Shown piece after piece: positions 983 through 62,696 of a stretch of 64,000 bases of DNA. The position numbers and the translations under genes were made by a program. This DNA is from Octopus vulgaris (taxonomy: Eukaryota): positions 103,850,001 to 103,914,000 of the forward strand of contig OX597814.1 in assembly GCA_951406725.2 (NCBI GenBank). The letters are read 5' to 3'. Each line of letters begins with the position of its first letter. The first letter of the stretch is position 1. Under the pieces are notes generated by a model. It saw only the letters and a program-made list of their open reading frames with translations, ran no database searches and had not been told where the DNA came from.

Positions 983-1347
983 TATATATACCAATTAAGG
1001 ACTGAACACGAAAAGTGGACAGTCAACATGCTAGATATAGACGTCAAATCGCCATTCTCCACAAAGGTTATGTTCTCAAAAAATAAAATTCAGCACAAAC
1101 CAAAGCAATAAATAAGACAAATGAAAATATACGAAATGAAATAATCACCTGTGTACCGATCGGTTTCAGTACCGATCGGTACACAGGTGATTATTTCATT
1201 TCGTATATTTTCATTTGTCTTATTTATTGCTTTGGTTTGTGCTGAATTTTATTTTTTGAGAACATAACCTTTGTGGAGAATTTTGACGTCTATATCTAGC
1301 ATGTTGACTGTCCACTTTTCGTGTTCAGTCCTTAATTGGTATATATA
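983..1347. repeat. Near-perfect fold-back palindrome (~180 bp arms, 6-nt loop), probably PLE pLTR-derived
   Basis: Arm 983-1164 is the reverse complement of 1171-1347 apart from one 5-nt indel; loop TTCAGT. At the apex the minus strand reads GAAAC-CGATCG-GTA, the 3' half of an HHR. Confidence 0.9.
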
Positions 1348-1453
1348 TACATATATATATAACGGGAAGGTTTATGAAAAGAAACAAAAGACGAAGGCAG
1401 GTGGAGTACAAACAAACAAATGTATTAGTATAGCGCTCAGGAATAGAAAAAGT

Positions 1454-1489
1454 CTTTTACGTTTCGAGCCTACGCTCTTCGACAGAAAG
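1454..1489 (-). ncRNA. Minimal hammerhead-like motif with variant core CUGUCGA, inside a repeat at ~1361-1545
   Basis: Minus strand: cttt-CTGTCGA-A-gagc-gtag-gctc-GAAAC-GTA-aaag. Stem I 4 bp, stem II 4 bp, loopless palindromic stem III. A related copy lies at 20222-20257. Confidence 0.65.
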
Positions 1490-1627
1490 TTACACTGAAA
1501 AAAACAAGGAGAGAAAAAAATGCGTGTAGTGGCTAACGATCTATCATGGCGTCCTGACTTCGGACAGTGGTCAGACGCGAGAGGGACAGTAGGGGAGATA
1601 AAAGGGTCAAGTGACTTCCAATATATA

Positions 1628-1848
1628 TGTAAATATAATATGTGACAATTATTCGGTAGCCATGATAAAATTCCGAGTTTCGGATGTCGGGGCGGAAACC
1701 CACACCGCCATCTCTTCAGTTATCGGGCCATCGAAAAATGCTTAATGGCACGATAACTGAAGAGATGGTGGCGTGGGTTTCCGCCCCGAAATCCGAAACT
1801 CGGAGTTTTATTATGGCTACCGAATAATTGTCACATATTATATTTACA
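1628..1848. repeat. Fold-back inverted repeat (~104 bp arms) carrying an HHR-like motif in each arm
   Basis: Arms 1628-1731 and 1745-1848. Plus arm 1752-1812 reads gataa-CTGAAGA-(long stem II)-GAAAC-TCGGA-GTT-ttat; the mirror copy is 1664-1724 on the minus strand. Confidence 0.85.
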
Positions 1849-1925
1849 GATAAATTCCTCTATTTACATAAGGCCGAGGTCTCTTTCATTCTTTTGTTGT
1901 CTTACCATTTCTATCAATATCTATG

Positions 1926-1927
<2 letters not shown>

Positions 1928-2006
<79 letters not shown>

Positions 2007-2082
2007 CATACGTATATATATACATATACATGTATACATATTTATATATACATATGTATATATATATGCATACATATATATC

Positions 2083-2150
<68 letters not shown>

Positions 2151-2169
2151 TATAGATATACATATATAT

Positions 2170-2202
<33 letters not shown>
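1928..2202. repeat. (TC)n-(TA)n/(TACA)n compound microsatellite
   Basis: Seen directly. Confidence 0.95.
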
Positions 2203-2729
2203 CATTTGGAAACCGGCTCCCTCCTCGGTGGAAGATTTATCATAATTAAAATATAGAACACACACACACACATATATATAGGGCTTTATATATATAACGT
2301 TTTTAACTCATTAAACTCAATGACTGAATGTTCGAACAATAAAAAAATCCACTTCAAAAATATACAAAATAGAATTGATGGATACGAAATAAAGTTATTA
2401 GCATTTTTGTGGGTGTTGTAGGTAAATATTAGCCCCGGGGTAATTTAGCATTTACTGCTGCTATTCATTTTAGCATCAAGTGACTTATGCAGGAGATTGC
2501 CAACAAAAACACACACAAAAACAAAAACAAAAAAGACAAAAAGGCTATATTTTTCATTGAGATTAATTAGACAGAATTCAACAGAAGTTTGGCCCCGGGC
2601 AGGTTCTCATTATACACAAAACATCAAAGAAATAGTACAAAAATAGCAAAAATCACAATAGAAACAAAACAATTCCAAACAATAATGATTTTTAATGTCA
2701 TTAAGAATATAATAATAATAATGATAATA

Positions 2730-3190
2730 CTATAGGCACAAGGCCTGAAATTTTGGGGGAGGGGACTAGTCGATTACATTAACCCCAGTGTTTCATTAGC
2801 ATGCCGAGTGAAATGCTTAGCGGTATTTCGTCTGCCGTTACGTTCTGAGTTCAAATTTATTGACCCGGAAAGACAAAGTTGACCTTGGCAGAATTTGAAC
2901 TCAGAACGTAAAGACGGACAAAATGTCATTAAGCATTTTGCCCGGCATGCTAATGATTCTTATTTCTTTATTGCCCGCAAGGGGCTACACACAGGGGGGA
3001 CAAACAAGGACAGACAGACAGATTAAGCCGATTATATCGACCCCAGTGCGTAACTGGCACTTAATTTATCGACCCCGAAAGGATGAAAGGCAAAGTCGAC
3101 CTCGGCGGAATTTGAACTCAGAACGTAACGGCAGACGAAATACCGCTAAGCATTTCACCCGGCATGCTAATGATTCTGTCAGCTCACCAC
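2730..3190 (-). mobile_element. Cluster of SINE family A pieces (tRNA-like head, GTCGACTTTGCCTTTCATCCTTTCGGGGTCGATAAA core), with one small inverted piece at ~2797-2856
   Basis: Matches copies at 13357-13590, 17074-17307 and 18443-19222; followed by (TAA)n at 3198-3243. Confidence 0.85.
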
Positions 3191-3196
3191 CACCAC

Positions 3197-3247
<51 letters not shown>

Positions 3248-4064
3248 GGCCCCACAAATTCTCACTTTTTTTTCTGGTGACTTAAGTTTGAGACCTGTTT
3301 TGGGGTAATTTGGGGTCACTGAGTTTTAAAATGACAATAGAATTTTTTCTATCGCGTCTATTTCTTTTCCTATGGGCTGACCCATATTGGCCCCATCCGT
3401 AGCTCCATGTTGAAAAAGACACCAACGCTCAGCCTACAACACCAAGGGCGAGCCGATGTCCAACAACAAAGTGTTTGAAGATCTTCGCCAGGCACACTGT
3501 AAGAAACGCATGCGCCAGGTTCCGACGCCGTTTTGAGGTCATTGTGGAAGTTGGGGGCGGCTACTTTGAGTAAACTATCATCTCTCTTTGAGTAAACTGC
3601 AATCAAGTCGATTCTTTTTTGATTTGGGAAAATACTTTTATTCTGTGTTTTCTTTTCCTTTTGTGAAACTGTCAAATTTAACTCCGAATACCCTCTATCA
3701 AATGATTTGGGTTTTAACCTTGGTGTTTGCTATATTTAGCTTATTCACAGGACACGCAGTAAAATCATGGAAAATATAGAAAAAGTATTAAGTATGTCGG
3801 TGGATAATATTTCGCGACATCACTTGCCTCTTGTCTGAAACCATTATCCATCAAAAAAGCATTGAATTTATTTTATCAGTTGAAATAATATGAAGCTGAG
3901 GAAGTCAACCGTTTTTGCTTTCAGAGGATGATTTGAAACGCTCAAAGTGCGATCTTATCTTTACGGCATTCGAATAATCAGGCTATCAGCGTCTGTTGAC
4001 ATCTTAGAGAGCCAGTGTGTTTTTGTGGGTTATTATGTTTTATTTGTTGCATAAACTAAAGAAA

Positions 4065-4191
4065 GTCGCTGTGTAGTAAGACGTTCAGTCCCAGTGCATG
4101 GCACCTTGGGCAAGTCTCTTCTACTATAACCTCGGGTCGACTAACACCTTGTGAGTGGATATGACTGCTGGAAACTGAATGAAGCCCGTCG

Positions 4192-4225
<34 letters not shown>

Positions 4226-4310
4226 ACAGAATGTTCACCTAACTTGGGGCTGTGCGGACTATACCGAACTGGCAAGATGCCTCAATTTGAGTACCTAATT
4301 AAACTGAATC

Positions 4311-4389
<79 letters not shown>

Positions 4390-4527
4390 CGCAGGCGTGG
4401 CTGTTTAGTTAGAAGTTTGCTTCCCAACCAAATGCATGGCACCTTGGGCAAGTGTCATCTACTATAGCCTCGGGCCGACTAAAGCCTTGTAAGTGGATTT
4501 GGTAGACGGAAACTGAAAGAAGCCGTC

Positions 4528-4567
<40 letters not shown>

Positions 4568-4808
4568 GTGTGTATGTATGTATGTGTGTATATGTTTGTG
4601 TGCCTGCGTTTGTTCCCCACCACCACCATCGCTTGACAACCGATGTTTGGTATGTCTCCGTCCCCATAACTTAGCGGTTTGGCAAAAGTGACCGATAGAA
4701 TAAGTAGTAGGCTTACAAAGAATAAATCTTGGGGTCAAATTGTTCGAGTAAACGTAGTGCCCCAGCATGGCCGCAGTCAAATGACTGAAACAAATAAAAT
4801 AATAAAAG
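4065..4808 (+). mobile_element. Two SINE family B copies (4065-4192 partial; 4388-4808 near full length with internal (TG)n), separated by (TA)n and a unique insert
   Basis: tRNA-like head, CORE-like GCACCTTGGGCAAGTG motif, tail GCATGGCCGCAGTCAAATGACTGAAACAA; recurs many times in the window. Confidence 0.85.
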
Positions 4809-5216
4809 AATATATATATATATATATGAGAGAGATAGAAAATGAGATGTTTGAGCATAAAATATATGCATATACACTCATTCACACATTAACGCTTAAT
4901 CTTTAAAACCTAGTGCGGTAATATAATTAACTGTGTATAAAATGAAATAACTCCTTTAACTGCATGCTTGCCAAAAACACTGAAGAGCGTCGTGAAAATA
5001 TAAGAGTTACTCCCCTTGAAATTTTGCTTCATCTCTGTTTACTTTTTTCAAAGATGGCGTCCTACTAACAGCAAAAAATTTTCTCTAATTGTAAGTCGAC
5101 AATCGTTGATCGTGAAACCGGTACTTATTTAATTTGTAATGATGTAATATGTTCCTAATATCACCATAAATTTTATTATCCAGACCTTCTGTGACTCTTA
5201 CATTTCTTTTCTTTTA

Positions 5217-5852
5217 GCAATAATAAATCTCTGAGCGAGATATAACAGTAGCTGCACGACATCGTGAAGTATATTTGCCACTTAAATGTAGCTAACCCTT
5301 AAGGGTGGATGCTACTGTAGCTTGTAGCCCCAGGAAGACACCTCCTCCAGTTGGCTATTGACACACTTACTATACCCTATCAGTATTTGCAAAGAGAAGC
5401 CATCCTTCCCATCTCCAACCTGACGTGATACACACGGACCCGAGTTTCTGAGTATTGACCCTTCATCAGCGTGTGACAATCACCGGTTGTCGATGTGAAG
5501 TGGTTCCCAATGCAAATATACAGTATACAGTCGTGCAGCTACTGTTTATACCTCGTTCAGAGATTTATTATTGCTTGTTTACACTTTTTCGAGATCAGTG
5601 ACTTTTCGTCGCTGGGAAAAGGATATATGTATTTGAGAACCACTTCACATCGACAACCGGTGATTGTCACACGCTGACGACGGGTCAATACCCAGAAACT
5701 CGGGTCCGTGTGTATCACGTCAGGTTGGAGATGGGAAGGATGGCTTCCCTTTGCAAATACTAATAGGATATAGAAAGTGTGTCAATAGCCAGCTGGAGGA
5801 GGTGTCTTCCTGGGGCTACAAGCTACATTTAAGTGGCAAATATACTTCACGA
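5217..5852. repeat. Two interleaved inverted repeats (A-B-A'-B'); the B arms carry hammerhead motifs
   Basis: A 5217-5260 pairs with A' 5530-5574; B 5262-~5507 pairs with B' ~5636-5852 (B has a ~29-nt insertion). Confidence 0.88.
5668..5712 (+). ncRNA. Type I hammerhead ribozyme motif (mirror copy 5431-5475, minus strand)
   Basis: cacacg-CTGACGA-c-gggt-caat-accc-a-GAAAC-tcgg-GTC-cgtgtg: perfect 6-bp stem I, 4-bp stem II, canonical core, GUC cleavage triplet. The mirror copy has CTGATGA. Confidence 0.8.
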
Positions 5853-7369
5853 CAAGGTAGAAAATGCTAAAATAATTTTATCATGAAACACATTTTGTAC
5901 CGGTTTCAGTCTTTTCGACTTTTTCAGCTAAGAGTAAAACAAGAAAAACAATTAAGTTGAAGAAAAAATTAAATTATATGTTTTGTAAATATTTCCATAG
6001 TCTTCAAATAGGTAGGACATTTTCCTCATTTCTTTCTCTCTTTTGCTTTGTGAAGACTCGATAGGTGGCAGATCTGAAGAAACAATGTCTTTGAGTGCAA
6101 AGAAATGTTTTGTTCTGAAGTTTGATGGTTTGATGCCGACAAAAACGGACACAATTGCTATCATTAATGAAGAAATACTGAAAGAACTCAAGAAAATCAA
6201 CACAGACCTGTTAACGTTTTTTAAGAAATTGGACTCGACACGTGAACCCAATCGGGAGAGCAATGAGGAAATCGATACGAAAAATACAACCTCCGAAATC
6301 GGCGAAAAACTTGGAAACCTATGTGAAACAATTAAAACATTCTTCTCAAACAACGCAAACCAAGGACCACCGAACGAGGAAACTTTATGGGATTTATACA
6401 TTAACAGCATAGCAAATGAAAAACCACATAGTACCACAATGTAGCAAATCACTCGACGATAGAAAGTTCGCCTTTTGGAAGGTGATCCAAAACAACAACA
6501 AAGCGAATATATCAGAAAAATGGTTTAATCTGACTCTGTTAATGCCCCACCCCCCACCCCACCCCGCAAACTCCACATCAAAGCCATTATAGATGAAGTT
6601 GCGGCACAAAGGCGCCTTAGGGAAGAATGGTACTGGAAAAAAATGGAAATAGAACTTCTAAAATTGAGGGCTCCGACAAATGAAGATAAAGTAAAATCCA
6701 TTGATGAAGAGATCAACAAAATGACTCAAGGCCCCAACCTAGAGATCTCAAAACAATGGAAAATGATTGCGACAAAGAAGAACTGAAATCCCTCCCATAC
6801 TGGGGAAAAAACGCCACTTGGTTTTCAAACTATGAAACTGTCTTTCAAACAGAATACGCTTCCAACAACCCTTTCCCAAAAATAAGAAAATCAAAACAAA
6901 ACTCAAACACAATTTCACACCTATCTAAAAAAACAAAATCATCTCCCCTGCTGAAAAAAGAATACAAGACATAACCTTAGCTTCATAACCCACCCGCGAA
7001 ACAACAACGGGGGTACACCAACAACAAAGATATAAGAAATCTCTACCCACAGGATAGACATTAGAACCCCCCACCAAGGGGATGCCAGCGTAATTTTTAT
7101 TCCAACAATCTACTTAACAACCACGTACAACAAATCCATACCACACGAAATAATTACCAACGACGGCCCTCAAAAGTATCACATCCGAACATTGAATATA
7201 GAGACACTCTTTTCAATCGTCTTCCAAGAACCCGCACCATTAATCACGACAACAGGTCACTCCACCATAACAGGTGACAACTACATAACAGCAATCATTT
7301 TTTTAGACCCAGTACACAAACACGGAGATACGAGATAGCACCGAACATAAAAGAGAACCCAGAAGGGAT

Positions 7370-9560
7370 AAGTCATCTAACTCTCAAAGAACTAACACCA
7401 GACCAAATCAAAATACTCTGCAAAGGGCTCAAATTTACACCCACCCACCCCAGTGCCCCAACTACAACGAAATGAAATAAGACGTTGCGAAATTCTGTAG
7501 AAACTTACGACTCGCCGAAGAACTATATGACGTACAACGAGGACGAATCATTAGCCAGAAATAAAAGTAACTACACCCCATCAAAAGGTAAGAACAAAAT
7601 TATTGACCATTTCTGAGAACACATTACGAATTACACATATCAACCCATACACAAACAAAAATACAAACCAAACTTCAGCAAAAAAAGAATGTTTAGCTCA
7701 GCTAAACAGATTAAAGGATGATAAAGCAATAACAATAAAAGAGGCTGATAAAAGGAGTGCAGTAGTCTTAATGGACACGCGCTGTTATATAACCCTAGTA
7801 CTATCCATATTAGAAGATACAACATATTATGAAAAGGTCCAACACTACAGTCAGCAGAAAATAATGAGAAACCTAAAACCCATGTTAAACCTATACAGAG
7901 AAGGGCTCACCGACATGGAATACGACTATATGACAAACTCCAAAAGTAAATCCAGTCAATTTTACGGCATTCCCAAGATACATAAAAGGGAAAAAATAAG
8001 CAACGCATGCAGGGAAGCCACAACATAATAGTCAAGGTACCTACACCCGATGATCTCAAATTAAGACCCATAATAGTAGGCCCAACATGCGAAACTTACC
8101 ACCTCGGCAACTTTTGAGATACCCTCTTAAAACCATTCCTCAAGCATACCAAAAGCTATATAAGTGACGACCTAGATATACTCAACTACCTCCCTGAAAC
8201 AATCAATAAAAAACCCTACAAGTATCCTTTGATGTATTCAACCTCTATTCTAATATCCCCCACAGCCTAGGAATAGAGGCAATCCAATTCTGGTTAGAGA
8301 ATTACTCCAATGACCTCCCACACCGAATCAAAATGAATTCGTAATAGAAGGGCTAAAATTCATCTTGGAGCATAACTTCGTATTCAATGACAACTTCTAT
8401 CAACTGAAATCGAGGACTGTGACAGGTACGAGAATGGCCCCTCCCTTTGCTAACCTAATCATGGGGTACTTAGGAATCACTCTTTATTGTAAAGTACTAG
8501 CAAAATACGGAATCCCCTTCTCCCTTTACATAGCAAATAACTGGAAGAGATATTTAGATGACTGCCTCATTCTTTGGCATGAAAGTACAGAGGGACTTCA
8601 AGAATTTCAAGCACTTCTGAATGGACGTGACATAAACATTCAATTTATGATGGAATATAGCCATCAACAACTTCCATTCCTCGACATCGTCATTAAGAAA
8701 CAGACACATACTATAAGCCCACGAACTTCAAGTAATATCTACCGTTCAACTCATGCCACCCTAGACACACTAGAATGAATATCCCTTTCAGCCTGGCAAA
8801 AAGGATTTGCACGATAATGTCTAATACACGACTACATGAGCTAAAAGATACACTCGTCAGCAGGAATTACCCACCATCACTAACTGATATAGGTTTTTAA
8901 CGTGCCCTACAACTCGACATCTACGAACTCAGACATATCAAACTAAAGAATGAATTACAACCTATAGCCTTATAATACATGTCCACACACAAACCCCTAA
9001 ACAATTGGGCCTTCGACACCATCCTCCAGAACATTCATTTACTAAAAAGGGGCCATAGAATGAATCAAATCCTCCAAACGCACACCATCATAAAGAGCAA
9101 AAGACAGCCCAAGTCAATGAAAAGTTTTCTAACACAAGCCCAAGTACACTTGTCGACAATATCGAAACCGTCATTAAAAAAAAATGCGGAAGACCTAACT
9201 GTGGTATATGCGTCAACCTAATTGAGGGGTCGGAGCTCTTCAAACAGGGTCAACATTTTACAGTGAAAAACAACTTCACATGTGCTTCGGAAAACCTAAT
9301 ATATGTGTTAACTTGCTCAGGGTGTTGTGAGCAATACATTGGTTAGACTAAAAACAGTCTACGCCAGAGGATGACCGTACATAGATTCCAGATTAAAATA
9401 CGGGAATAAAGAAAAATAGCATTAAGTGAAAACATCGACATTTGCACCACTAATGAACAACCCAACTTTAGAATTTTTCCCTCCATAAATTTAGGGACAA
9501 GGCAACCTATAATCAGCGCATTAGCAAAGAAACATATTTTATCGAAATCTCTTTTGAACA
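7370..9560 (+). pseudogene. PLE reverse transcriptase - Cys linker - GIY-YIG endonuclease, frameshifted
   Basis: Motifs LCKGLKFTPT, ITIKEADKRSAVVLMD, FYGIPKIHK, LRPII, FDVFNLYSNIPH, GTRMAPPFANL, WKRYLDDC, LPFLDI, CHPRHTRMNIPFSLAKRI, CGRPNCGIC, NLIYVLTCSGCCEQYIG; many stops. Confidence 0.92.
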
Positions 9561-9574
9561 CTTCCACCACATAT

Positions 9575-10720
9575 GACACGACTACGAGGATCTTAGACTA
9601 ATACCAACACAAATATTAAAATCGATAGATATATACGTTGATTTTGCTAAAGCCTTCAACTCTGTGCCACACAAACGACTCATGGTAAAATCTCTGCTAT
9701 GGGTGTGAAGAATGATCTCTATAATTGGCTGAAGTCCTTCATTCTCGGTCGGAAAGAGATAGTTACGGTTCTAGGACATTATTCTTCACCCTACAAGATG
9801 ACTTCTGGTGCACCACAGGGATCCTTTCTTGGACTCCTACTGTTTGTTACATATATTAATGATATAGATGCCAACTTGATGAATGTTACAGTGCTGAAAT
9901 ATGCAGATGACATCAAGCTGTACCTCGAAATAAAAAGAACAGATCCTATTTGCTATAGATCTTTCCTGCAATCAGACCTGGATACAATGCAGCAATGGAT
10001 CTCTGACTGGCAACTCAACCTAGCTGTGGACAAGTGCAGCACCATGAATTTTGGGAGGGAAAATCCAGTCTTTACATACTCTCTCTCAGCAACACCAATC
10101 TCAAGAAGTCTTCTAGCGGACGTGAGAATGTAAACAACGATCTGCGTTGGACAAACCACATCTCTAAGATTGTCCAGAAGGCTGAGGGAGAAGTGGGGTG
10201 CTAGCATCACTCAGTGAAACTTTTGTCAGCCGCTCTCCACCTATCTATTTAATATTGAATACGACAATGGTACATCCGCACCTGGAATTTGCATCACCAG
10301 TCTGGAACCCCTATCTTGCTCAGCATATAAATCTCCTGGAAACTGTTCAGAAACGTGCAACAAAACGAATACCCGCCGTCAGACATTTACCATACTCTGA
10401 AAGTCTTGCTTCCCTGGGCATGGATACATTGAAGCTCAGATGTCTAGTAACCAACTTGGTTGACACCCACAAGACTATCCACCATCTTTCCAACAACAAC
10501 CTTGGGCACCTTTTTGAATTCCATGACAAACACTCGCGAACATGCTTATAAAATCAACAAAAGAAAAAAAACAACACAGCACCCATGACTTTCGGAAACA
10601 TTTTTTTCCTGCTCAGAATTGAAGCATGGAATAAACTGCCTGCATCAGTTGTTAGCTTTCGAGACACCACATCCTTCAAAACTTCCATCATTCCTGAAAT
10701 CCGCCAACAGTACACCTGAT
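9575..10720 (+). mobile_element. 5'-truncated CR1-like LINE (RT C-terminal half and 3' end) nested in the PLE
   Basis: YVDFAKAFNSVPH, SGAPQGSFLGLLLF, KYADDIKLY, HLEFASPVWNP, LETVQKRATK. Confidence 0.88.
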
Positions 10721-10934: not shown

Positions 10935-11013
10935 CTTCTTCTTCTTCTTCTTCTTCTTCTTCTTCTTCTTCTTCTTCTTCTTCTTCTTCTTCTTCTTCTT
11001 CTTCTTCTTCTTC
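10935..11013. repeat. (CTT)n microsatellite
   Basis: Seen directly; it explains the poly-Leu of ORF 10878-11516. Confidence 0.97.
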
Positions 11014-11326
11014 CTCAGCTGCTGCTTAAACCATCAAACTTCAGAACAATACATTTCTTTGCACCCATAACCATTATTTCTTCAGATCTGCCCCTAACTA
11101 CCGAGCCTTCACAAAAGAAAAGAGAGAAAGAAGGAAGGAAAATGTCCTACCTATTTGAAGACTATGGAAATATTTACAAAACATTTCATTTATTTGAGTT
11201 GAAGAAGTCAAAAAGACTGAAACCGGTACAAAATGCATTTCATGATAAAATTATTTTAGCATTTTCTACCTTGTCTTATTTTCCTTATACATATCAACTT
11301 GTGTGTCACTTTTCAACCTTACATAC

Positions 11327-11359
<33 letters not shown>

Positions 11360-11509
11360 TGTATGTATGTATGTATGTATGTATGTATGTATGTATCTAT
11401 GTATGTATGTATGTATGTATGTATGCATGTATAAATGCATATATGTATGTATAAATATATGTGTGAGTGTGTATATATATATGTGTGTGTATGTGTGTCT
11501 GTCTGTCTG

Positions 11510-11705
11510 TGTTTGACTCCTACCACCGCATGACAACCAGCGTTGGTGTGTTTACGTCCCCGTAACTCTACGGTTGGGCAAAAGGAACCGATAGTACCAG
11601 GCTTTAGAAAAAAGTTCTGAAGTCGATTCATTCGACTAAAAATTCCTCAACGTATAACTCCAGCATGGCCGCAGTCTTATGACTGAAACAAGTAAAAGAT
11701 AAAAG
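11510..11705 (+). mobile_element. SINE family B 3' portion
   Basis: Shares body and tail with 4600-4808; preceded by (TATG)n. Confidence 0.75.
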
Positions 11706-12343
11706 TGGGCATATTTTAAAAATTTACCTGCATAAAGTTGACACACAAAGGTGATTATTAATGTAGAATGTGGAAACAGATTGTTATGGCATTCTGTGTG
11801 AACAAAATGAGACGTCAGCCCCCATTAATATAATGTCAAATAGAAGCTGGACTCATAAAAAATTCTGTTTCTGAACGCTACAAACTGAGGACCCCCTTTT
11901 TTTTTATTTCTTTTCTCTTCCTCTGACTACTGGTTTTCCCCTGTTTTCGTTTGTATACATTTACATTTAGTCCGTACGATGTTAAATGTTCTTCATACGA
12001 CTGATAATTATCGCATTGTCCTACTGCACTCACTCCCAAAATTTCAAAGGCAACGGAGACAGCCATTATTAACTACCATTTCCTCCAGCACATTTACCCC
12101 TATTTCTTCTTCCCTTTCTCCCCCTCTCAATCTCTCCTTCTCTCTCCCTCTTTCTCTCGCTGTTTATTCTTAATGACCACCAGTAGAAATCCCTCGCGCA
12201 CTAATCCAATGGAGACCGCCTCCCCTATGTCGTACAGAAATTTAACGAAAGAAATACTGTTGCCATCGACTTCGGTAAAACTTTGCGTCGTGTCTAGCAT
12301 ACAGATCTGGGATCGAAACTGTCAGGCTATGGAGTCGATCTGC

Positions 12344-12425
<82 letters not shown>

Positions 12426-12426
12426 A

Positions 12427-12457
<31 letters not shown>

Positions 12458-12637
12458 AACAAACAAAAGGACGTTGAGAACGATCAAGTATCCTGAAACC
12501 AACTTTGTTGAGGGAAATCAGTAATAACATTAGGGAACGGTACCAACCACAGCCAAAAGAACAAGACTTTCACCATTTCGGTTAAGAATATTAAAAAAAA
12601 AATGCACGCTGTTATATTTACCAATTTTAACACGTTA

Positions 12638-13028
12638 CTAGCAATATCACCCGGCGTTGCTCGGGTTTGTTTCGACCCTTTAGAATTGGAATTTTTGAAA
12701 AGTAAAAATTTTGCATTGTGTAGCTTGTTATTCTCTTTAAGTGAACATTTTTCTGGCTGAAATACACCGAAAAATGGCGACACAGCAGACAAACAATAGT
12801 AAAAAAATAGGGATTTTCATTAAAAAAAAGTACCTTTTTGATGTAAATAATTTTTGGTCTTAACATGGTCCGATTTGAATTTTATCTTCTACGAAAGGAA
12901 GAGCAAACCTTCTTCTATCATACTCTCAATTTTGGTCATCTTGCGCCGCAGGGTCTCAGAGGAGATAGTGTTAGATGAAGGCTACCAAACCTGCCACACA
13001 CAGACAACTTCAGCTTTATATAGAGAGA
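12638..13028 (-). mobile_element. Non-autonomous Helitron
   Basis: The minus strand starts TCTCTCTATATAAAG and ends with hairpin CCCGAGCAACGCCGGG, then TGATATTG-CTAG|T; no TSD; it interrupts the PLE relic. Confidence 0.8.
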
Positions 13029-13356
13029 AATTATATGAAACACTGGATTTCACTAAAAATTTTAATACCATAAATGATAATGATATTGAAGCGATAATGA
13101 ATACCTGGAAGACTCTGCGTTTCGATAAGAAGTTTGCTTGGGTTCGAAGATTGTTCAGTTTCTTTTGTGGAAACATGAGGTCGTTCGGCGGCCCTGAAAT
13201 ATGTGATCTTACACGACACCTTTTCATATATAAGAACTTCACTTCAACATAGTTTGATCGTTACAGTGCTGACGGGTTACCGATCTCTATTTATGCAAAT
13301 AAGCACGCACCAGACACAAAGCAAAGATATCCAAGCATTCAATTCATTCAGCCATA

Positions 13357-13590
13357 TAAGGCGTTGAGCTGGCAGAAACGTTAGCACGCCGGGCGAAATG
13401 CGTAGCCGTATTTCGTCTGCCGTTACGTTCTGAGTTCAAATTCTGCCGAGGTCGACTTTGCCTTTCATCCTTTCGGGGTTGATAAATTAAGTACCAGTTA
13501 CGCACTAGAGTCGATGTAATCGACTTAATCCCTTTGTCTGTCCTTGTTTGTCCCTTCTATGTTTAACCCCTTGTGGGTAGTAAAGAAATA
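13357..13590 (+). mobile_element. Full-length SINE family A with 16-bp TSD
   Basis: AATTCATTCAGCCATA at 13341-13356 and 13591-13606; pol III B-box-like GAGTTCAAAT. Confidence 0.93.
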
Positions 13591-13892
13591 AATTCATTCA
13601 GCCATAGCCAGAAACGAACTCTTGTTGTTCCTAGATGCCACCCCAGAGTTAAACAATACATATAATACCAACCATTTAGAAAATTTAGTAAAAAACATTT
13701 CACATGAACACAGGATTATACCACCCAGATTTTAAAAAAAAACTTTATCAATAACAGAAGTAGAAGGATTTAAAATCTGTCCTCTTCTGAAATGATTCTT
13801 ATTATAGCATTATCTTTGAAGCGAGTGGATAACAAAGATTAGGTTAGGATCCCAACAAAAATTAAGAAGGAAATAAGAAAAGGCGACTTTGA

Positions 13893-14100
13893 AGGGTGGA
13901 AAGCTGGAAGAAACGTTAGAACGCCCGGGTGAAATGCTTAGCGAAATGCTTTACGTTCTGAGTTCAAATTCCGCCGAGGTCGAGTTTGCCTTTCATCCTT
14001 TCGGAGTCGATAAATTAAGTACCAGTTGCATACTGAGGTCGATCTAATCAATTGGGCCCTCCCCCAAAATGTCAGGCCTTGCGCCTAGAGTAAAAAAGAA
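13893..14100 (+). mobile_element. SINE family A, alternative-tail variant
   Basis: Same head and core; tail CCCTCCCCCAAAATGTCAGGCCTTGCGCCTAGAG. Confidence 0.85.
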
Positions 14101-14427
14101 AAGAATATTATCTGGCTTGCACTGTTCTGTTCACTAACATTTAAATCTAGGAGTTTAATCTAGGAGACCTTATATATGAAACTGTGCAACAAATACCACC
14201 TTCAAGTAAGTGTTATCTGTGCCACTCAGAGAAAGGAACTTATATCTCTTGTCTACCATATGCACTAGGACAGATTTCTCATGTAACAAGACCAGTGCAT
14301 GCCTTCTAAATCCGAACCTCAGCACTGTTCGAACATCACAGTAGTATAACAGAAGAAAATGATTTACATGTCATGTTTCTTCCTTCGGGGACCACATTGA
14401 TAAGCAAAATAGAACACGACTCGCGAG

Positions 14428-14487
<60 letters not shown>

Positions 14488-15419
14488 GAACAAGTTTTTA
14501 ACTATTGGAAAATCAAGGATTTATTGAGATGGCAGTAACAGATGTAACCTATGCATTGCTGAGAGAATACAGATATGACCAAAAATCACTACAATTAGGG
14601 ATACATATTAATGCTAAGTTTGAGACCTTTAGTAAATAATAAATTTATCTTACGTGACGAGGACACAGTCACCCAGGATATAATATTGTATTTATGCAAG
14701 TGTTAGAAAGCAAGAGCCCCAAAGTAGAGGGTCTGGATATGCGGATAACGTCTAGCGCTACATTTCCAACTTTACAAAACTTTACTTTGATTTTAGTGAC
14801 AACACAAAAAAAATTGTAAAATTGGCGAAAAGGAATGCTACAGGATGACCTGACGGATTTAAATTTATATTATAATTGTAATGATAGCATGTTCATCGGT
14901 ATTTTCCTTCTAAACTACTACAGAACATAATTTTGAAAGTGGAAAGATGTGTATACACACCTTTGGATATATGGATGTCAGAATGCATACATACATACAT
15001 ACATACATACATACATACATACATACATACATACATACACATACATACATACACGTATGCCTTGCATACGTTGCTGAGGTCTCCGGCATTCATTCATGGT
15101 CATTGGTGAAGGTCCTAGTTGGTCGCCCCACAGGAACAGAGTCACCTGCGGATGAACTTCCCGAAGCGCGAATGGCAATTGCTAACTGCTGTCCTCCTCC
15201 TGTTGCCGTTTGACTTGTAGCAATGGCTTACGACCGGGAAACGTCGCTCCCTGTGTTGCGTCGACGCAGAAGGCGAGGGCCAGATTGTTCTCTCCGTTTT
15301 GTTGTCCAGTTCTGTCTCTCCAGTCTACAGTGTTCAATAGAGTGCAAACGTGGACCGTATGATATGGAGGACAGGTCGTTGTCCATGCAACAGCAGCATG
15401 CGCGCCGCCCTAGGGTGAA

Positions 15420-15730
15420 GGTGCCTGGCTTAGTGGGTTGAGTATTCAGCTCACAATCGTAAGGTCATGAGTTCGATTTTCAGCAGCGCGTTGTATCCTT
15501 GAGCAAGACACTTTATTTCACTTTATTGCTCCAGTCCCTTCAGCTGGCAAAAACGAGTTGTAATCCAAAGGGACAGCCTCGTCACACTGTGTCACACTGA
15601 ATCTCTCTGAGAATTACGATTAGGGTACGCGTATCTGTGGAGTACTCAGCCACTTGCACGTTAATTTCACGAGTCGGCTGTTCTGTTGATCGGATCAAGT
15701 GGAACCCTCGTCGCCGTAACCGATGAAGAG
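15420..15730 (+). mobile_element. tRNA-derived SINE family C (related partial copy ~35200-35350)
   Basis: TGGCTTAGTGG A-box, GAGTTCGATT B-box, then CCTTGAGCAAGACACTTTATTTCAC. Confidence 0.75.
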
Positions 15731-16640: not shown

Positions 16641-16699
16641 CACACATACATACATACATACATACATACATACATACACACATACATACATACATACAC

Positions 16700-19934: not shown

Positions 19935-19937
<3 letters not shown>

Positions 19938-20122
19938 GATGAGAGATATTAGTGTCAAGAAGCTCCAGGTTCGATAATGATACGAATGAGGAGTCCAACG
20001 TGGGTCGTGTACTAGCAAGCATATATATAAAAATTAACAGAATGAGTTTTAAAAAAATCCAAGGCTGTGAATAGTTTTCAGAACATTTATAAAGATAAGG
20101 TCTTACAGCTGTTTCCGGGATA
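19935..20122 (-). mobile_element. Probable PLE 3'-end fragment between (TA)n tracts, beginning at an HHR 3' half
   Basis: The minus strand begins tatcccg-GAAAC-AGCT-GTA-agacc (palindromic stem III). Confidence 0.5.
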
Positions 20123-20167: not shown

Positions 20168-20345
20168 TGTCGCTAGCCACTACACATTGTTTATTTTCTC
20201 TTCTTGTTTCTTTCTGTGTTCCTTTCTGTGGAGGAGCGTAAGCTCGAAATGTTAAAGACTTTTTCACTTCCCGAGCGTTATACTGATACATCTGTTTGTT
20301 GTCTACACCACCTGTCTTCGCCCTTTTTTTTTGTGAATTCTCCCT
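20168..20345 (+). mobile_element. Second copy of the 1361-1545 repeat, with HHR-like motif at 20222-20257
   Basis: cttt-CTGTGGA-G-gagc-gtaa-gctc-GAAAT-GTT-aaag; the flanks align with the reverse complement of 1361-1545. Confidence 0.75.
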
Positions 20346-31162: not shown

Positions 31163-31500
31163 ATTCTGTTGTGTCTGAGGAGAGTCATTTTCTTTTTGTG
31201 CCTTATAATTGAAAACACACCCACCGGTAAAATTTCCACTTTTTTCTTATTTTTATTTTCCTAAAATTTTCGTTGCGTCTTGCAACCTTTTCAATAGAGT
31301 CAAAACTATTGAAAAGGTTGCAAGACGCAACGAAAATTTTCAGAAAATAAAAATACAAAATAAGTGGAAATTTTACCGATGAGTGTGTTATATTATAAGG
31401 CACAAAAAGAAAATGACTCTCCCCAGACACAACAGAATATGCTTCAACACACAAACTCATATAAAGAATCTTGCAAACCAAACCCAAAAACGAAATATTT
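31163..31500 (+). mobile_element. Fold-back-plus-tail element, copy 1, with a U3-A8 hammerhead variant at the apex
   Basis: Arms 31163-31297 and 31306-31438, loop AGTCAAAA, ~60-nt tail; imperfect 17-bp flanking direct repeat at 31148-31164 and 31492-31508. Confidence 0.88.
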
Positions 31501-32089
31501 TATCCAATGTTTGTAAATTTTAGTTTTTTTATTTGTAAATTGAACCAAAATCAGGAATCAAAAGAAGGTTCTCATCTGTGATTTCAAAGAATTGTTAGCC
31601 AACCATAGACTTAGTTTAGATTCCAGTTGTAGAAGTCCAACAAATTGAGCAACTCAGTTATAAAATGTGAGAGCAGCCAGGTACAGGTGAACTCTTGTAA
31701 TCTGATATGAATTCCCCCACCTACCACCACCTATTGATGGTATTTAACAGAACAATGTGTAAAGGGGTTTGGCGTAGTGTAGCCACCAATTCTACATTCT
31801 CTGGACAACAAGAAACTCTGTTCCATAAAGTTAGTCATTTGTGAGTAAAACAAAACCTGGTAATTAACAACACACAGTATAATTAACAATAGAAAATATA
31901 ATTAACAAAAAAGAATTAGTAATTGTTTATCATTATGACATATTATAATTACCGAAATAGGTAATATTATTATTCTAGTTTTGGTGGAGGATTCTTTTAT
32001 GTAATTAGAGAAATTGATTGACTCATATTATCACATGCTTCCAAAATCATCATCATCATCATTATTATTGTTATTGTTGTTATTATTAA

Positions 32090-42975: not shown

Positions 42976-43378
42976 CTGTTGTGTCTGGGGAGAGTCATTT
43001 TCTTTTTGTGCTTTATAATTTAACACACTCTTCGGTAAAATTTCCACTTATTTCTTATTTTAATTTTCCTAAAATTTTCGTTGCGTCTTGCAACCTTTTC
43101 AATAGTCCTGACTCCATTCACTCAATCATTTAAATGTACGACTGTGGCTGTTAGCAACTCTGGTGTTGTTTTCTGTTTTCAAGACTATTGAAAAGGTTGC
43201 AAAATGCAATGAAAATTTTAGGAAAATAAAAATAAGAAATAAGTGGAAATTTTACCAATGAGTGTGTTAAATTATAAAGCCCAAAAAGAAAATGACTCTC
43301 CCCAGACACAACAGAATATGCTTCAACACACAAACTCATGTAAATTATCTTGCAAACCACATCCAAAAATGAAATTAT
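42976..43378 (+). mobile_element. Fold-back-plus-tail element, copy 2 (75-nt spacer)
   Basis: Arms 42976-43107 and 43183-43314; same arms and tail as copy 1. Confidence 0.88.
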
Positions 43379-45299
43379 TAAATTTAATAATCTTTATGAT
43401 TTTTATTTAAAAGAAAAAAAAATTAATTATCTATGTTAGCACTGATTAGCATTTGTGCAGACTTTGACATGACACTAATTAACAAAATATCACAGAACAG
43501 ATACAGTTTGCTTTCTAATACCATCCTGGCATTTAATTTATTAAACCTGCTGAGATAAAAGAAATGCAAAAGCCATGTGATCATATTTGTAATTATTCTG
43601 TTTTAATGTGAGGTTGATAATTGGTGATGGGGCTGTCCGTTGCACATACACAAAATAACCTTTGTCTCTGGGCAATTATTCTGTTTTTGGTTAAAACTTG
43701 ATATTCAGTTAGATTTATCATGAAAAGCATCCCTTTCCTCAGCTTAAAGCATGTGATCTGACACTTTATGAGGTAGACACTTAAATGTATCGGCCACTCC
43801 CTGACAGGTTCATGGTCAAGCCTGTGGTAGTGGAGGCCACCAGTGTTCGTGACCCCCTCCTCTCCAAACCACCTTCCTCTTCCCCGTTATCGAAGCAGAG
43901 ATGGCTATATGCAAGCGCAAGTCCCATGAAGAAGAAAAAAGATATGATTCAGGCAGAGCCCTTCATCAAATTTAGAATACTCTCTATGTATAAACAAAAT
44001 TAACTTTTGTAAAATGATAGTTGAATATGACATTGTTTATCAAGTGACTCACATTTGCAAGCTGTTCACTCGATCGTTTAAATGTACGACTAGGGCTGTT
44101 GGCAACTCTGCTCTTGTTTTCTGCTTTCAATTACGTTTATCTTCGAGTTAAATATTTAAGTGGTTTCAAATGCTTTCAGACGTTAGCTGTTTATGTAGAA
44201 ACTAATTTTATTAATAACATTGAGACAACACTTTCCTCATTAACCCTTCTCTAATTCTTAAACGATATCCATTTCTGTTACTCCTGCTGTCTATCTTTCA
44301 TATCATAATTTACATTGATGACTAATCATTGATGATCAATGACTGATCAGCTTGTTTAGCTTTTAATCCAGCTGAACATTAATGCTGCTCTAACTAAATA
44401 ATAGATTAACATTATTAATATTTACAGCCTTGTAACTAAACAGATATGTAAACTTGTTTTTTTTTACATCATACATATATATTTCAATGTGTGTGTGTGT
44501 TTGTGTAACTGTGTGTGTACAAGCACAGGTGTGGCTGTGTGATAAGATGCTTGCTTCCCAACCAAATGGCTCTGAGTTCAGTGGCACCTTGGGCAAGTGT
44601 CTTCTACTGTAGCCTGAAGCTGACCAAAGCCTTGTGAGTGGATTTGGTAGAAGGAAGCTGGAAGAAGTGTGTGTGTGTGTGTGTCTTTTGCACACACTCA
44701 CTCCCATCAGCTTGACAACTGCTATTGGTGTATTTGCATCCCCATAACTTTGCAGTTCAGCAAAAGAGATTGATAGAATAAGTACTAAGCTTAAATTTAA
44801 AAAAGTCCTGGGGTTGATTCATCTAACTACAAATTCTTGAAGGCATTGGTGCCCCAGCATGGCCACAGTCTAGTGGCTGAAACAAGTAAAAGATAAAAAA
44901 AACATATAACCCATGTAGTTTGTGTGGTTGTTTAAAGTGAAGAAGGGTTTTTCACCACCAACCCACTCTCTCGTCCCTGGCCCTTTTGAATTCAGTGGTA
45001 AGACTTGGTCCAGACAACTTGGGATCGAAATAGCTGCAGTGAATGGCCAAGATATCTTCCTTTGCTGCATATTGCTCTCTGCACTCTACAATGTGTTGCT
45101 ATGGCCACCTTCCTCTCCATTCTGTCATGAAGGTTTCTTCCTCTTAGTCTATCGAATCTACTCTTCATATGCATTGGTAGGCCAGCCTTGGACATAGTTT
45201 TATACCTATTGGTTACTTTGTCATGCAGAGTGAATTGAAAATACACCGGAGTGTTTAGTTATCTGTCAAGTCACAACAAGGACACAACAGACAGATAAT

Positions 45300-59908: not shown

Positions 59909-62310
59909 TCTAATGGATGTTTGAGTTTCTGAAGTTTCATGGGGCCTAGGTATTACTCTTCTAGGTTTTTATGAACTTTTTCATATTGATAGTTAAGCTG
60001 TAACTATTTCTGAAGTTCTGTCTGTGGAGGTATGATTGTGTGGAGGTATAACTATGTTTCTAGTGTGTGGAGGGATGACTGTGTGGCCAAATGTCTGCTT
60101 CACTGTTATGAGGAGCAATTCCATTGCTTGGTACGTTGACCAAGTATTATTTCCAACATCTTCAGGTTTAACTAAACCTTCTTAGTAAAACTGGGTAGGT
60201 AGAAACTGTGAGAGCCTATTAGATGAACTGTAGCTGTAATTCTTGGGGGTTGATGCCTTACTCTAAGTCTGCCTGGAGCTTACATTAAGGGTGCAAGGGT
60301 TGAATGACTACACCCAAGTTTTTTTACCATGTCATTCTGTGTTTACACTTGAATTATATTCAGCTACTTGTCTTCATTACCAATAAATAGAGGATTCTAA
60401 CTATTGAACAAATGTATATATTATGCATGTATATGTATACATATAGGCTTAGTCATATTCAAATGTAAGAACTGAAAGCCGAATTATTTCTGTAAGGTCA
60501 CTTCAAGTGGGGGGGGGGTATCCCATTGTTGCACCACATTGCTGCAACAAGCATTTACCACTTGTTGGTTTATTCCCGGGACCTCCTGGGTGACTGGTAA
60601 AGCTGAGTACCAGTCAGTCCCCGTCTCCACGTGATACCTCATCATCTACTATAACCATATAACCCCTGGTTGACCACCACAAGCCATCAACCCAGCTGGA
60701 TCATCAGTGAAAAGAACACAGTAAGCTGGGTCTGACTCGAAAAATTGAACAACATGGCCAAACAGTTTGGGGTGTGGCCATTGCCAGCGCCGCCTTGACT
60801 GGCTTCCGTGCCGGTGGCACGTAAAAAACACCAACCGATCATGCTGTTGCCAACCTCGCCTGGCACCTGTGCCAGTGGCACATAAAAAGCACCCACTACA
60901 CTCACGGAGTGGTTGGCATTAGGAAGGGCATCCAGCTGTAGACACACTTCCAGATCAGACTGGAGCCTGGTGCAGCCTCCTGACCCCGGTTGAACTGTTC
61001 AACCCATGCTAGCATGGAAAACGGACGTTAAACAACGAACGATGGGATTTCTGTATGACTGAAATATAATTAAAAAACACGTTAAAGTCATTCAGGTATA
61101 TTTATTCTTGTTGGTTCATCAGTTTTAAATATTTTTCTTCAAGTTTTTGCCATTATCTAAATCTATCATTTGAGGATTCCTTTTGTTTTCCTTTTGTTAA
61201 GAAATAATTTTGTCATACCTAACAACTTTCTTGATTTATTCTTATACTTATCTCCTCTCTTTGTTGTAATTTGTTCCTTAATCACTGAGGATTCTCTAAA
61301 TAAGCATCACCTTTTTAGGACGAGGAACTTTTTCTCTTGGAGAACTGCTAAATTCATTTGGTTTGCAATCAATGCTTTCTTCTTTCATAGTTCTACATTA
61401 CAACAATAAATTCATATTTTTATAAAAACAACTTTTGCTGTTTTATTACTTTTACTAAGTTTTCGTGAGACACAATTATACTTTTCTCATTTTTCTTTCT
61501 ATGAATTATAAAACCAGTTTAAATTACCTAAATCACATAGTTTCAACTAACTCAAGATCTATTTTTAAAACCTTCTCAGTGTGTCAGTTGATGGTGGGTG
61601 GAGTATATAAAATGTTTTATGTGGTTATTGAAAAAAATAGATTTGATAACAGAACCGTATTTTAAATAATTTCAAAGTACAATTAAGCATTTTTAACCAT
61701 GTGATTCCTCACTGCATATTGATAATAGGTATTTCATATAATCACCTTAATGAATTAGTAACTGATGAGAGGTATTTTATGTAATCACCTTAATTAATAA
61801 TTGCAGTTGATGGTAAATTAAACAACAAAGAAATATACATCTCCATTTGTACCTTTTTTTTCCATGGGCTAAAGAAAGGCTAAAATTCTATAGAATTTGC
61901 TCAGTATTGCAAATGTTTTGTGTCTTGGAGTTCTTCAAGTGTTGTTACCAATCATCTCCTTATACAGATCTCTTTTGGTAATACTCATATTGTATGGCAA
62001 CAATAACTAAACTGTGGAAATTGTAGTAAAAATATCAGCAACATCATCATCATCATTTGATGATGATGATGATGATATTTTCACTATAATATATCAATAT
62101 TTTTTTAATAGCAATGAAATAATTATGTTTGCTAATTGTTTAAATAAGAAACTGTTTCACACCAGTTTTATTTCTCAACTATCTTTTTCCTTTTGGATCC
62201 CTTTCATTCCTATTTTACTCAACTGAACCATCATTACCATTCAATCTTTAAAAAATCCTATTTTTACTATCAAATATTAAGAATTGTATAAAAAATTAAC
62301 ATATTTTGTG

Positions 62311-62450
62311 TATTCTGTTGTGTCTAGGGAGAGTCATTTTCTTTTTGTGCTTTATTATATAACACACTCACTGGTAAAATTTCCACTTTTTTTCTTATTC
62401 TTATTTTCCTAATATAAAGAATCTTGCAAACAGAATCCAAAAATGAAATA
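62311..62450 (+). mobile_element. Fold-back-plus-tail element, copy 3 (hairpin centre deleted)
   Basis: Left arm 62311-62412 is joined directly to the tail; 14-bp direct repeat ATATTTTGTGTATT at 62301-62314 and 62448-62461. Confidence 0.85.
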
Positions 62451-62696
62451 TTTTGTGTATTGTTGACACATAATCAATTTATTGCAGATAAATGTTAATA
62501 ACAAAATCTCATATGGACCCCTATAAGGGCCATATGGACCCCGGTTGGGAACCAGTAGTTCACACCTAAATTTTGTTTTGGCAAATTCTGTTCCTAATTA
62601 GCAGATATATTAAATGGTATTGAGATTAATATTTGTGATGTGATGGTGTAGTATTTAATATTGTTGAACAATTATTGGCAATAGTTTAAAAGTACT

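What the first reader, a model, noticed from the sequence alone, without database searches (positions are those of the whole stretch)
983..5852. Fold-back apexes repeatedly coincide with hammerhead motifs across unrelated families
Seen: in 983-1347 the apex lies 3 nt before the HHR GAAA; in 1628-1848 it is ~7 nt before stem I; in 5262-5852 it is ~30 nt before stem I; in the 31163 and 42976 elements it is at stem I. The HHR always reads outward from the apex, and most copies have an unpaired tail beyond one arm. The non-inverted piece at 19935-20122 also starts just before GAAA. Established: PLE insertions often carry an inverted partial pLTR. Inference: the ribozyme fold or its palindromic stem III may set where reverse transcription stalls and snaps back, giving a general rule for making genomic palindromes.
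Basis: partly seen in the sequence, partly recalled or inferred. Interest (0 to 1): 0.75.

Follow-up and report, generated by a model that had tools for sequence, protein, structure and literature searches.

The report
Penelope retroelement hairpins mark RNA ends
These mirror-image DNA stretches are short insertions of a known type of jumping gene (Penelope-like elements); their turning points lie near a small self-cutting RNA motif, likely because that motif sits at the front end of the element's RNA, where copying would run out, and not because the motif makes the copying enzyme stall and fold back.

Summary
The fold-backs and outward-reading hammerheads are real, and one (5262-5852) heads a broken Penelope-like (PLE) RT/GIY-YIG gene. 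Inverted pLTR + one-sided tail + TSD, with hammerheads on opposite strands, is published. In public contigs one arm starts at the family's 5' edge (6 of 7 and 6 of 8 listed strand-switch joints in two families), 9-19 nt before the core. The other arm starts anywhere downstream, with no excess inside the ribozyme. That meets the finding's own refutation clause. Two apexes hold copies of neighbouring DNA. Best reading: two cDNAs primed from both sides of one break, at two RT start sites, joined head to head where they run off the RNA. A secondary hot spot at the predicted cut site in one family hints at cleavage in vivo. The scan noted the same pattern before, in other genomes and elsewhere in this one.

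The parts
983..1170 (-). Family A, left arm; starts 3 nt before GAAA, 3' half of a hammerhead (8-nt palindromic stem III, GUA cut triplet); 901-982 may be its tail (untested)
1171..1347 (+). Family A, right arm; starts at A15.1, upstream of the cut; identical to the left arm but for a 5-nt indel
1345..1615 (-). Family A', non-inverted copy with a minimal hammerhead (core 1485-1458); contig depth falls about 30-fold between 1544 and 1565, 60-80 nt before C3
1620..1738 (-). Family B, left arm without tail; starts 19 nt before C3 (1719); predicted cut between 1669 and 1668
1739..1744 (.). Junction filler of family B; 1735-1750 matches 40478-40493 exactly (16 nt; weak, may be chance)
1745..1915 (+). 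Family B, right arm (complete hammerhead 1757-1807) with a tail of about 60 nt; tail end approximate
   Evidence: (loose ends before 1620 match the tail)
5262..5519 (-). Family C, inverted pLTR; canonical type-I hammerhead 5469-5437; starts 50 nt before C3
5520..5622 (.). 103-nt apex filler; 5530-5575 is an inverted copy of the left flank 5216-5260 (43/46); the rest has no match in the window
5623..5852 (+). Family C, direct pLTR; hammerhead 5674-5706; starts 51 nt before C3
5853..9560 (+). Body of a near full-length, broken PLE: RT, CX4CxxC linker and C-terminal GIY-YIG-type endonuclease; 3' end interrupted by a LINE-type RT fragment (9651-10130, RVT_1)
19935..20122 (-). Family D, non-inverted piece starting in TA-rich sequence just before GAAA (20115); 3' half of a hammerhead
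20170..20330 (+). Second family A' copy (132/158 to the first), starts 54 nt before C3; head to head with family D across a (TA)n tract
31163..31501 (.). Family E copy 1: left arm 31163-31297 (no tail, starts 3 nt before U3), right arm from about 31296 with tail; 12-bp TSD with one mismatch (31153 / 31497)
42976..43375 (.). Family E copy 2: left arm 42976-43114, locus-specific filler 43115-43178, right arm from 43179 (U3 43188, predicted cut between 43218 and 43219), tail to about 43375
44065..44130 (+). Neighbouring DNA matching the filler of family E copy 2 (58/66, same orientation)
62301..62461 (.).

Best explanation
The palindromes are head-to-head insertions of the hammerhead-bearing end (pLTR) of Penelope-like retroelements, likely made by two cDNAs primed from the two sides of one DNA break and joined where each stopped, so that the apex would mark the 5' end of the RNA template. 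SHOWN: a PLE gene behind one palindrome; outward hammerheads; two fixed 3' ends about 60 nt apart in family E (arm without tail, arm with tail); one arm starting at the family's 5' edge and the other variably truncated; one TSD-flanked insertion whose two arms do not overlap; neighbour-derived filler at two apexes. FROM THE LITERATURE: a PLE protein nicks and extends both strands, starts RT at two internal sites that delimit the tail, and is modelled as a dimer; the transcription start lies in the pLTR. INFERRED: each strand is primed at one of the two start sites. Because those sites lie only 100-250 nt downstream of the RNA start, the cDNA runs off quickly, and the hammerhead is close to the apex because it occupies the first few dozen nucleotides of that RNA. 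A minority of templates were likely already cut by the ribozyme, giving arms that start at the cut site. The two cDNA ends would then be joined by short microhomology or with templated filler.
For: Family E: 7 of the 15 joints shown (70 in all) are strand switches, and 6 of the 7 have one arm at 43172-43185. Loose ends before 43179 agree only 0.43-0.45 (50-75 contigs in each of three runs), against 0.71-0.72 for the shared tail, so most copies have no common sequence further upstream. 3' ends pile at 43317-43319 (287, 264 and 229 contigs in three runs; 211 in the fourth, where only two of the three places are shown), and the tail ends near 43375. Family B: 8 of 15 rows shown (41 in all) are strand switches; 6 of 8 have one arm at 1735-1738 and the other spread over 1670-1703. 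No excess of short-arm starts inside the ribozyme. Locus 62301-62461 has non-overlapping arms inside a 14-bp repeat, the geometry of L1 twin priming (PMC2837659, passages). Cut-site hot spot: the two best-supported strand-switch rows in family E start 1 and 3 nt after the predicted cut (11 of 15 contigs in shown strand-switch rows in run X3, 4 of 8 in X2, 3 of 5 in X4, 2 of 2 in X5), and the 62412 arm starts within 1 nt of it. Biochemistry: PMC11167929 (parts 1-2 of 4 read). Start site in the pLTR: PMC2377424 and PMC8557442 (passages).
Against: No RNA 5' ends were measured, so 'family edge = RNA start' is inferred. The joints are the best-supported rows only (26 and 55 rows hidden), come from short-read contigs that cannot span near-symmetric palindromes, and may hide up to 40 letters between the arms, so the anchor in family B could be limited by my reference. 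Several contigs at one joint could be one propagated derivative. 983-1347 has both arm starts inside the ribozyme, upstream of the cut and downstream of the RNA start, and 19935-20122 also starts upstream of the cut; my model explains these only as ordinary truncation. PMC11167929 found uncut RNA to be the main substrate in vitro and no RNA-seq reads ending at the cut. Family E's ribozyme is weak (3-4 bp stem I, H17 = U) and untested. In family B the row near the cut (2 nt before it) is not clearly better supported than others. Central deletion after insertion could mimic locus 62301-62461.
Confidence: 0.65

Rival explanations
1. One reading: RT stalls at the ribozyme fold or its palindromic stem III, and the cDNA snaps back and copies itself.
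For: 983-1347 fits: apex at an 8-nt palindromic stem III, 6-nt loop, identical arms, longer arm on the side of the presumed tail. 31163-31438 is also compatible (the tail-bearing arm is the longer one). 7 of 8 short-arm starts in family B fall inside the ribozyme. 19935-20122 starts just before GAAA.
Against: The fixed arm start lies 9-19 nt (E, B) or about 50 nt (C) upstream of the core, after RT has passed the whole fold. 5.3 of 8 inside the ribozyme is expected from geometry alone in family B (P = 0.19), and family E has 2 of 7 against 1.85. Folds are not unusually stable. Locus 62301-62461 has non-overlapping arms. In 1620-1915 and 42976-43375 each arm holds bases that the other lacks, and two apexes hold neighbour-derived filler. 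Naiad and Chlamys PLEs are reported to make inverted copies without a canonical hammerhead (PMC8557442, passages), although unchecked scan notes propose a rewired one in Naiads.
Confidence: 0.12
2. The asymmetry is secondary: insertions began as near-perfect palindromes of a short non-autonomous master element, later central deletions trimmed one arm, and the 5' edge is only the edge of that master, not an RNA start.
For: Perfect palindromes are unstable (general knowledge, recalled). Contig data see only asymmetric apexes. Families B and E have no ORF in the window, so their edge could be that of a derivative.
Against: Deletions would have to spare one arm's start exactly (6 of 7 and 6 of 8 rows) and hit the predicted cut site repeatedly. 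They do not explain neighbour-derived filler or the two fixed 3' ends. In family C both arms start at the same point (50 and 51 nt before C3) in front of an ORF-bearing body.
Confidence: 0.15
3. Self-priming on an antisense template makes the inverted copy, as proposed for rotifer Penelope elements.
For: Proposed in PMC3846280 (passages) from palindromes at inverted junctions and bidirectional promoter motifs in pLTRs.
Against: It does not predict non-overlapping arms, filler from flanking DNA or arm starts at the sense-strand cut site. PMC11167929 shows RT starting in the sense RNA at the two tail boundaries.
Confidence: 0.08

Closest known systems
Insertions of endonuclease-positive Penelope-like elements with inverted 5'-truncated pLTR, one-sided tail and TSD (Pen2a_Av, PMC3846280; Fig. 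2 legend of PMC8557442)
   Same: Head-to-head pLTR copies, tail on one side only, TSDs of 12-14 bp where the target is not a microsatellite, (TA)n targets, RT with CX2-5CxxC linker and C-terminal endonuclease (Neptune/Nematis type).
   Different: Tails here are about 60 nt rather than 30-40. The passages read do not map junctions to the RNA start or to the ribozyme cut. PMC3846280 favours self-priming, and PMC8557442 ascribes the tail to endonuclease-mediated resolution.
Minimal type-I hammerheads of metazoan PLEs (PMC4209133, parts 1-2 of 4 read)
   Same: Palindromic or absent stem III, extra base 5' of stem II, U3-A8 core variant (family E), and pairs of motifs on opposite strands 100-700 bp apart, all described there.
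   Different: That paper does not relate the motifs to the inversion point. Family A' carries U at core position 6 in both window copies.
PAc (Poseidon) in vitro mechanism (PMC11167929, parts 1-2 of 4 read)
   Same: Two RT start sites downstream of the hammerhead delimit the tail; both strands are cut and extended; the protein is modelled as a dimer.
   Different: In the parts read it does not address the inverted junction, and it found no RNA ends at the cut; the genomic arms here hint at such ends in one family.
L1 twin priming and dual priming (PMC2837659, passages)
   Same: Two inverted fragments within one TSD, an internal gap, and filler DNA at the junction.
   Different: In L1 the second priming site is variable and the first is the poly(A) tail; here both sites are fixed and the arms usually overlap, giving palindromes.

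Membership tests
EN+ Penelope-like element (Neptune/Nematis type) | PLE-type RT followed by C-terminal GIY-YIG endonuclease | tested here: met
   Family C only. Broken ORF 6900-9550. Its RT piece is 45-55% identical to 5 proteins with RVT_1 + PF26215; GIY-YIG hits in the 3 of those 5 that were scanned (2 above the curated cut-off). The window's own fragments gave no significant Pfam hit.
EN+ Penelope-like element (Neptune/Nematis type) | CX2-5CxxC linker before the endonuclease | tested here: met
   CX4CxxC seen in the translation; motif definition from PMC8557442.
EN+ Penelope-like element (Neptune/Nematis type) | Clade placement by RT phylogeny | not tested
   No reference PLE set was at hand; no tree built.
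EN+ Penelope-like element (Neptune/Nematis type) | Direct pLTRs flanking the ORF | tested here: inconclusive
   5' pLTR present; the 3' end is interrupted by a LINE fragment and no 3' pLTR was found in the window.
PLE insertion unit | Inverted 5'-truncated copy, one-sided tail, TSD or microsatellite target | tested here: met
   Families B and E; family C inverted pLTR. No TSD found for 42976-43375.
PLE insertion unit | Link of families A, A', B, D, E to an autonomous PLE ORF | not testable with these tools
   No genome held; assigned by architecture only.
Type-I (minimal) hammerhead ribozyme | Core boxes in order with stems I, II and palindromic stem III | tested here: met
   9 descriptor hits against 0.5 +/- 0.7 in shuffles. 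Majority letters in contigs restore broken pairs (43210 T>C, G10.1-C11.1; 1671 T>C, C15.2-G16.2). Families A and D show only the 3' half.
Type-I (minimal) hammerhead ribozyme | Match to an Rfam hammerhead model | tested here: not met
   None among the 150 of 162 matches shown at E up to 10.
Type-I (minimal) hammerhead ribozyme | Self-cleavage | not testable with these tools
   Needs an in vitro assay; arm starts at the predicted cut are indirect.
Non-LTR retrozyme | Tandem units each with a hammerhead | tested here: not met
   No tandem arrays of these families in the window; not tested genome-wide.

The most novel reading that the evidence does not exclude
PLE fold-back apexes are a fossil map of RNA ends: the longer arm records the transcription start, and a subset of shorter arms records hammerhead cleavage in the germline. 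Head-to-head PLE insertions would arise by routine two-strand priming at two fixed RT start sites. Tens of thousands of stubs per genome would then give a direct readout of whether minimal PLE ribozymes cut in vivo.
Probability: 0.4. Interest if true: 0.65.

Novelty: new member of a known kind. Interest (0 to 1): 0.4.

Why it matters
How PLEs make their inverted copies and whether their weak minimal hammerheads cut in vivo are both open questions (PMC3846280, PMC8557442, PMC11167929). The structures themselves are ordinary. The useful point is that arm-start statistics make both questions testable from genome sequence, and that the first data favour two-sided priming and run-off at RNA ends over ribozyme-induced stalling. 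Six literature searches (open-licence papers and bioRxiv only) showed no paper mapping PLE apexes to the RNA start or cut site, and none holding both 'twin-priming' and 'penelope'.

Tried and rejected
No whole genome is held, so the genome-wide census could not be run directly. Rfam returned only microRNA-type and other weak hairpin matches among the rows shown. Exact-pattern scans found nothing in metagenome contigs or viral contigs. The 14 PLE-RT loci from metagenomes held no hammerhead-bearing fold-back: 3 descriptor hits in 2 of 14 loci, none at an inversion, so no cross-lineage test came of it. No RNA holder was listed; this says nothing about expression. Family A could not be mapped: its ribozyme half had very low contig depth at the edge of the stretch laid. 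Table 5c lists further joints to 43179-43206 from 43215, 43241, 43253, 43287 and 43328; their type is not stated, so I left them out of all counts. The 58931(+) descriptor hit was dropped as probably chance (1-bp stem III, no repeat context). Rejected: MITE or DNA-transposon origin for families B, C and E (one-sided tail, variable inner ends, ORF behind C); microRNA hairpins (scores far below the gathering thresholds). PMC9977147 (passages) added only that de novo Chlamys PLE insertions are short (median 128 bp). Supplements of the papers were not read and may hold junction alignments.
Full report
SETTING. The window is repeat-rich animal DNA with many (TA)n tracts and one abundant SINE. Earlier scan notes call the genome cephalopod; I did not test that. 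No whole genome is held. I therefore worked from the window and from public short-read contigs laid on two stretches (four runs, 17,801-29,877 and 10,951-19,591 contigs laid per run, from 80% likeness).

1. OBSERVATION. The five palindromes are real. A type-I hammerhead (HHR) descriptor that allowed one core change gave 9 hits against 0.5 +/- 0.7 in 20 block shuffles: 1757+, 5674+, 5469-, 20226+, 1485-, 43188+, 43102-, 31294-, and a doubtful 58931+ that I dropped. 3' halves (GAAA, palindrome, UH) lie at 1167- and 20115-. The descriptor missed the left arm of 1620-1856 and the right arm of 31163-31438, which carry pair-breaking changes. Rfam listed no hammerhead among 150 of 162 rows shown. All motifs in palindromes read outward. 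Arm starts relative to C3/U3 are: B, 19 and 12 nt before; C, 50 and 51; E copy 1, 3 and about 13; E copy 2, 12 and 9; A, inside the ribozyme, 3 nt before GAAA and at A15.1 (the 13 read from the sequence). So 'at the HHR' covers everything from inside the core to 50 nt before it. Two apexes are not sharp: C has 103 nt and E copy 2 about 64 nt of filler.

2. WHAT IT IS. The right arm of 5262-5852 runs into a broken ORF (about 6900-9550) with PLE RT motifs, a CX4CxxC linker and a C-terminal endonuclease. Its RT piece is 45-55% identical to five proteins carrying RVT_1 and PF26215; the three I scanned have GIY-YIG hits. This is an endonuclease-positive PLE with an inverted pLTR at its 5' end. The other families have no ORF here but share the architecture. 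The motifs match the minimal PLE HHRs of PMC4209133 (parts 1-2 of 4 read): palindromic stem III, extra base before stem II, the U3-A8 variant, and pairs on opposite strands 100-700 bp apart. Inverted pLTR + one-sided tail + TSD is described in PMC3846280 and PMC8557442 (passages).

3. TEST OF THE APEX CLAIM. Family E: the filler 43116-43165 is covered by one contig per run, so it is locus-specific; it matches 44065-44130 (58/66). Loose ends before 43179 share a few letters and then disagree (agreement 0.43-0.45, against 0.71-0.72 for the tail), which puts the family's 5' edge at about 43173-43179, 9-15 nt before U3. Of 70 joints 15 are shown; 7 are strand switches: 43172-43205, 43179-43220, 43179-43222, 43179-43260, 43184-43237, 43185-43236 and 43204-43237. 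Family B: of 41 joints 15 are shown; 8 are strand switches, 6 with one arm at 1735-1738 and the other at 1670, 1683, 1691, 1693, 1698 or 1703, plus 1663-1698 and 1674-1723. A uniform null is rejected for the longer arm (rough P 5e-4 and 6e-6). The shorter arm shows no excess inside the HHR: 2 of 7 against 1.85 expected, and 7 of 8 against 5.3 (P 0.19). In family A' depth drops about 30-fold 60-80 nt before C3 in run X2, with like drops in the other three (depth is a rough measure), and the second window copy starts 54 nt before C3. The recurring stop is therefore the family's 5' edge, whose distance to the ribozyme varies by family. RT meets the ribozyme from its 3' side, so a stop beyond the 5' strand of stem I cannot be a stall at the fold (inference). 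The five folded motifs are also no more stable than shuffles (z +0.23 to -1.42). Limits: the rows shown are the best supported, contigs cannot span near-symmetric palindromes, and hidden letters between arms may shift the anchors, especially in family B.

4. SNAP-BACK OR TWO PRIMERS. A cDNA that folds back can only recopy what it already holds. A third family E locus breaks this rule. At 62312-62412 an antisense arm covers the equivalent of 43218/43219-43317. It is joined to a sense piece, 62412-62454, that covers only the distal tail and begins about 20 nt beyond the first arm's 3' end. A 14-bp exact direct repeat flanks the pair (62301, 62448; part of it overlaps the element's own ends). That is the geometry of L1 twin priming (PMC2837659, passages). 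In 1620-1915 and 42976-43375 the arm without tail starts 7 and 3 nt further 5' than the arm with tail, so each holds bases the other lacks. C and E copy 2 hold copies of neighbouring DNA at the apex (43/46 and 58/66). So 4 of 6 head-to-head insertions (B, C, E2, E3) do not fit simple snap-back, and 2 (A, E1) fit either model. The arm without tail ends at a fixed place (43317-43319; 211-287 contigs per run) and the tail about 60 nt further. PMC11167929 (parts 1-2 of 4 read) shows that a PLE protein cuts and extends both strands and starts RT at two internal sites that delimit the tail. I infer one start site per strand. The argument from mutually unique bases was suggested by an earlier scan note (e1-9291984) and tested here.

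5. CUT-SITE SIGNAL. In family E the two best-supported strand-switch rows have the short arm 1 and 3 nt after the predicted cut (contigs 1/1/2/2 and 3/2/0/9 in runs X2/X4/X5/X3; every other strand-switch row has at most 2 in a run). The 62412 arm starts within 1 nt of the cut. E copy 1 shows a variant at 43220-43221 that would trim alignments to 43222. In family B one row lies 2 nt before the cut (2 contigs in each of two runs), no better supported than 1698-1738. Against this: many contigs at one joint may be one propagated derivative; A and D start upstream of their cuts, so their templates were uncut; and PMC11167929 found no RNA ends at the cut. I put cleavage in vivo as the cause of this peak at about 0.45.

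6. VERDICT. Observation partly confirmed; PLE context right; stall-and-snap-back rule not supported. The structures are known. The mapping of apexes to RNA ends and the two-primer reading were not found in six searches of open-licence papers, but the scan has noted them many times, in other genomes and in this one; those notes are unchecked and are not counted as support. My confidence: PLE origin 0.95, two-sided priming 0.7, apex = RNA start 0.7, whole model 0.65. Interest 0.4.

Noticed in passing
window 55810-56853 (and 55549-55633): Largest fold-back in the window: about 520-nt arms (94.5% over the outer 419 nt) with CA-rich inner repeats, a 13-nt spacer and no hammerhead hit; an 85-nt copy of its terminus lies 260 nt upstream. 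Unclassified (foldback DNA element or HHR-less PLE end).
   Followed up: partly
window 19935-20330: Two different hammerhead families (D, minus; A', plus) sit head to head across a (TA)n tract; could be independent insertions or dual priming with two different RNAs.
   Followed up: no
window 983-1915: Three unrelated hammerhead families are packed end to end between (TA)n tracts; contig joints 1528-1625 and 1540-1639 suggest the A'/B adjacency recurs at other loci.
   Followed up: partly
window 1485-1458 and 20226-20253: Family A' hammerheads carry U at core position 6, normally A, in both window copies; table 3 shows varied letters at the next core position (1481).
   Followed up: no
window 11028-11320: 5'-truncated relative of the family C body (225/245 to 5851-6131) between (CTT)n and (TATG)n tracts, with a different upstream sequence; ends about 280 nt past the pLTR, perhaps a distal RT start site.
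   Followed up: partly
window 5294-5315: The left arm of family C has 24 nt that the right arm lacks, bounded by a short direct repeat.
   Followed up: no
window 2793-3173, 17080-19217, 20503-20685: The abundant SINE also forms inverted pairs and fold-backs, without any hammerhead hit.
   Followed up: no
window 9560-10700; 41380-42720; 47129-47560; 54743-55153: Fragments of other LINE-type elements; the first interrupts the 3' end of the PLE.
   Followed up: no
L006:1993 and L001:1-1655/3700-5354: A PLE-RT locus from a metagenome has a clean minimal hammerhead about 1.1 kb downstream of the RT match; another shows a 1655-nt perfect terminal repeat (tandem array or assembly overlap).
   Followed up: no
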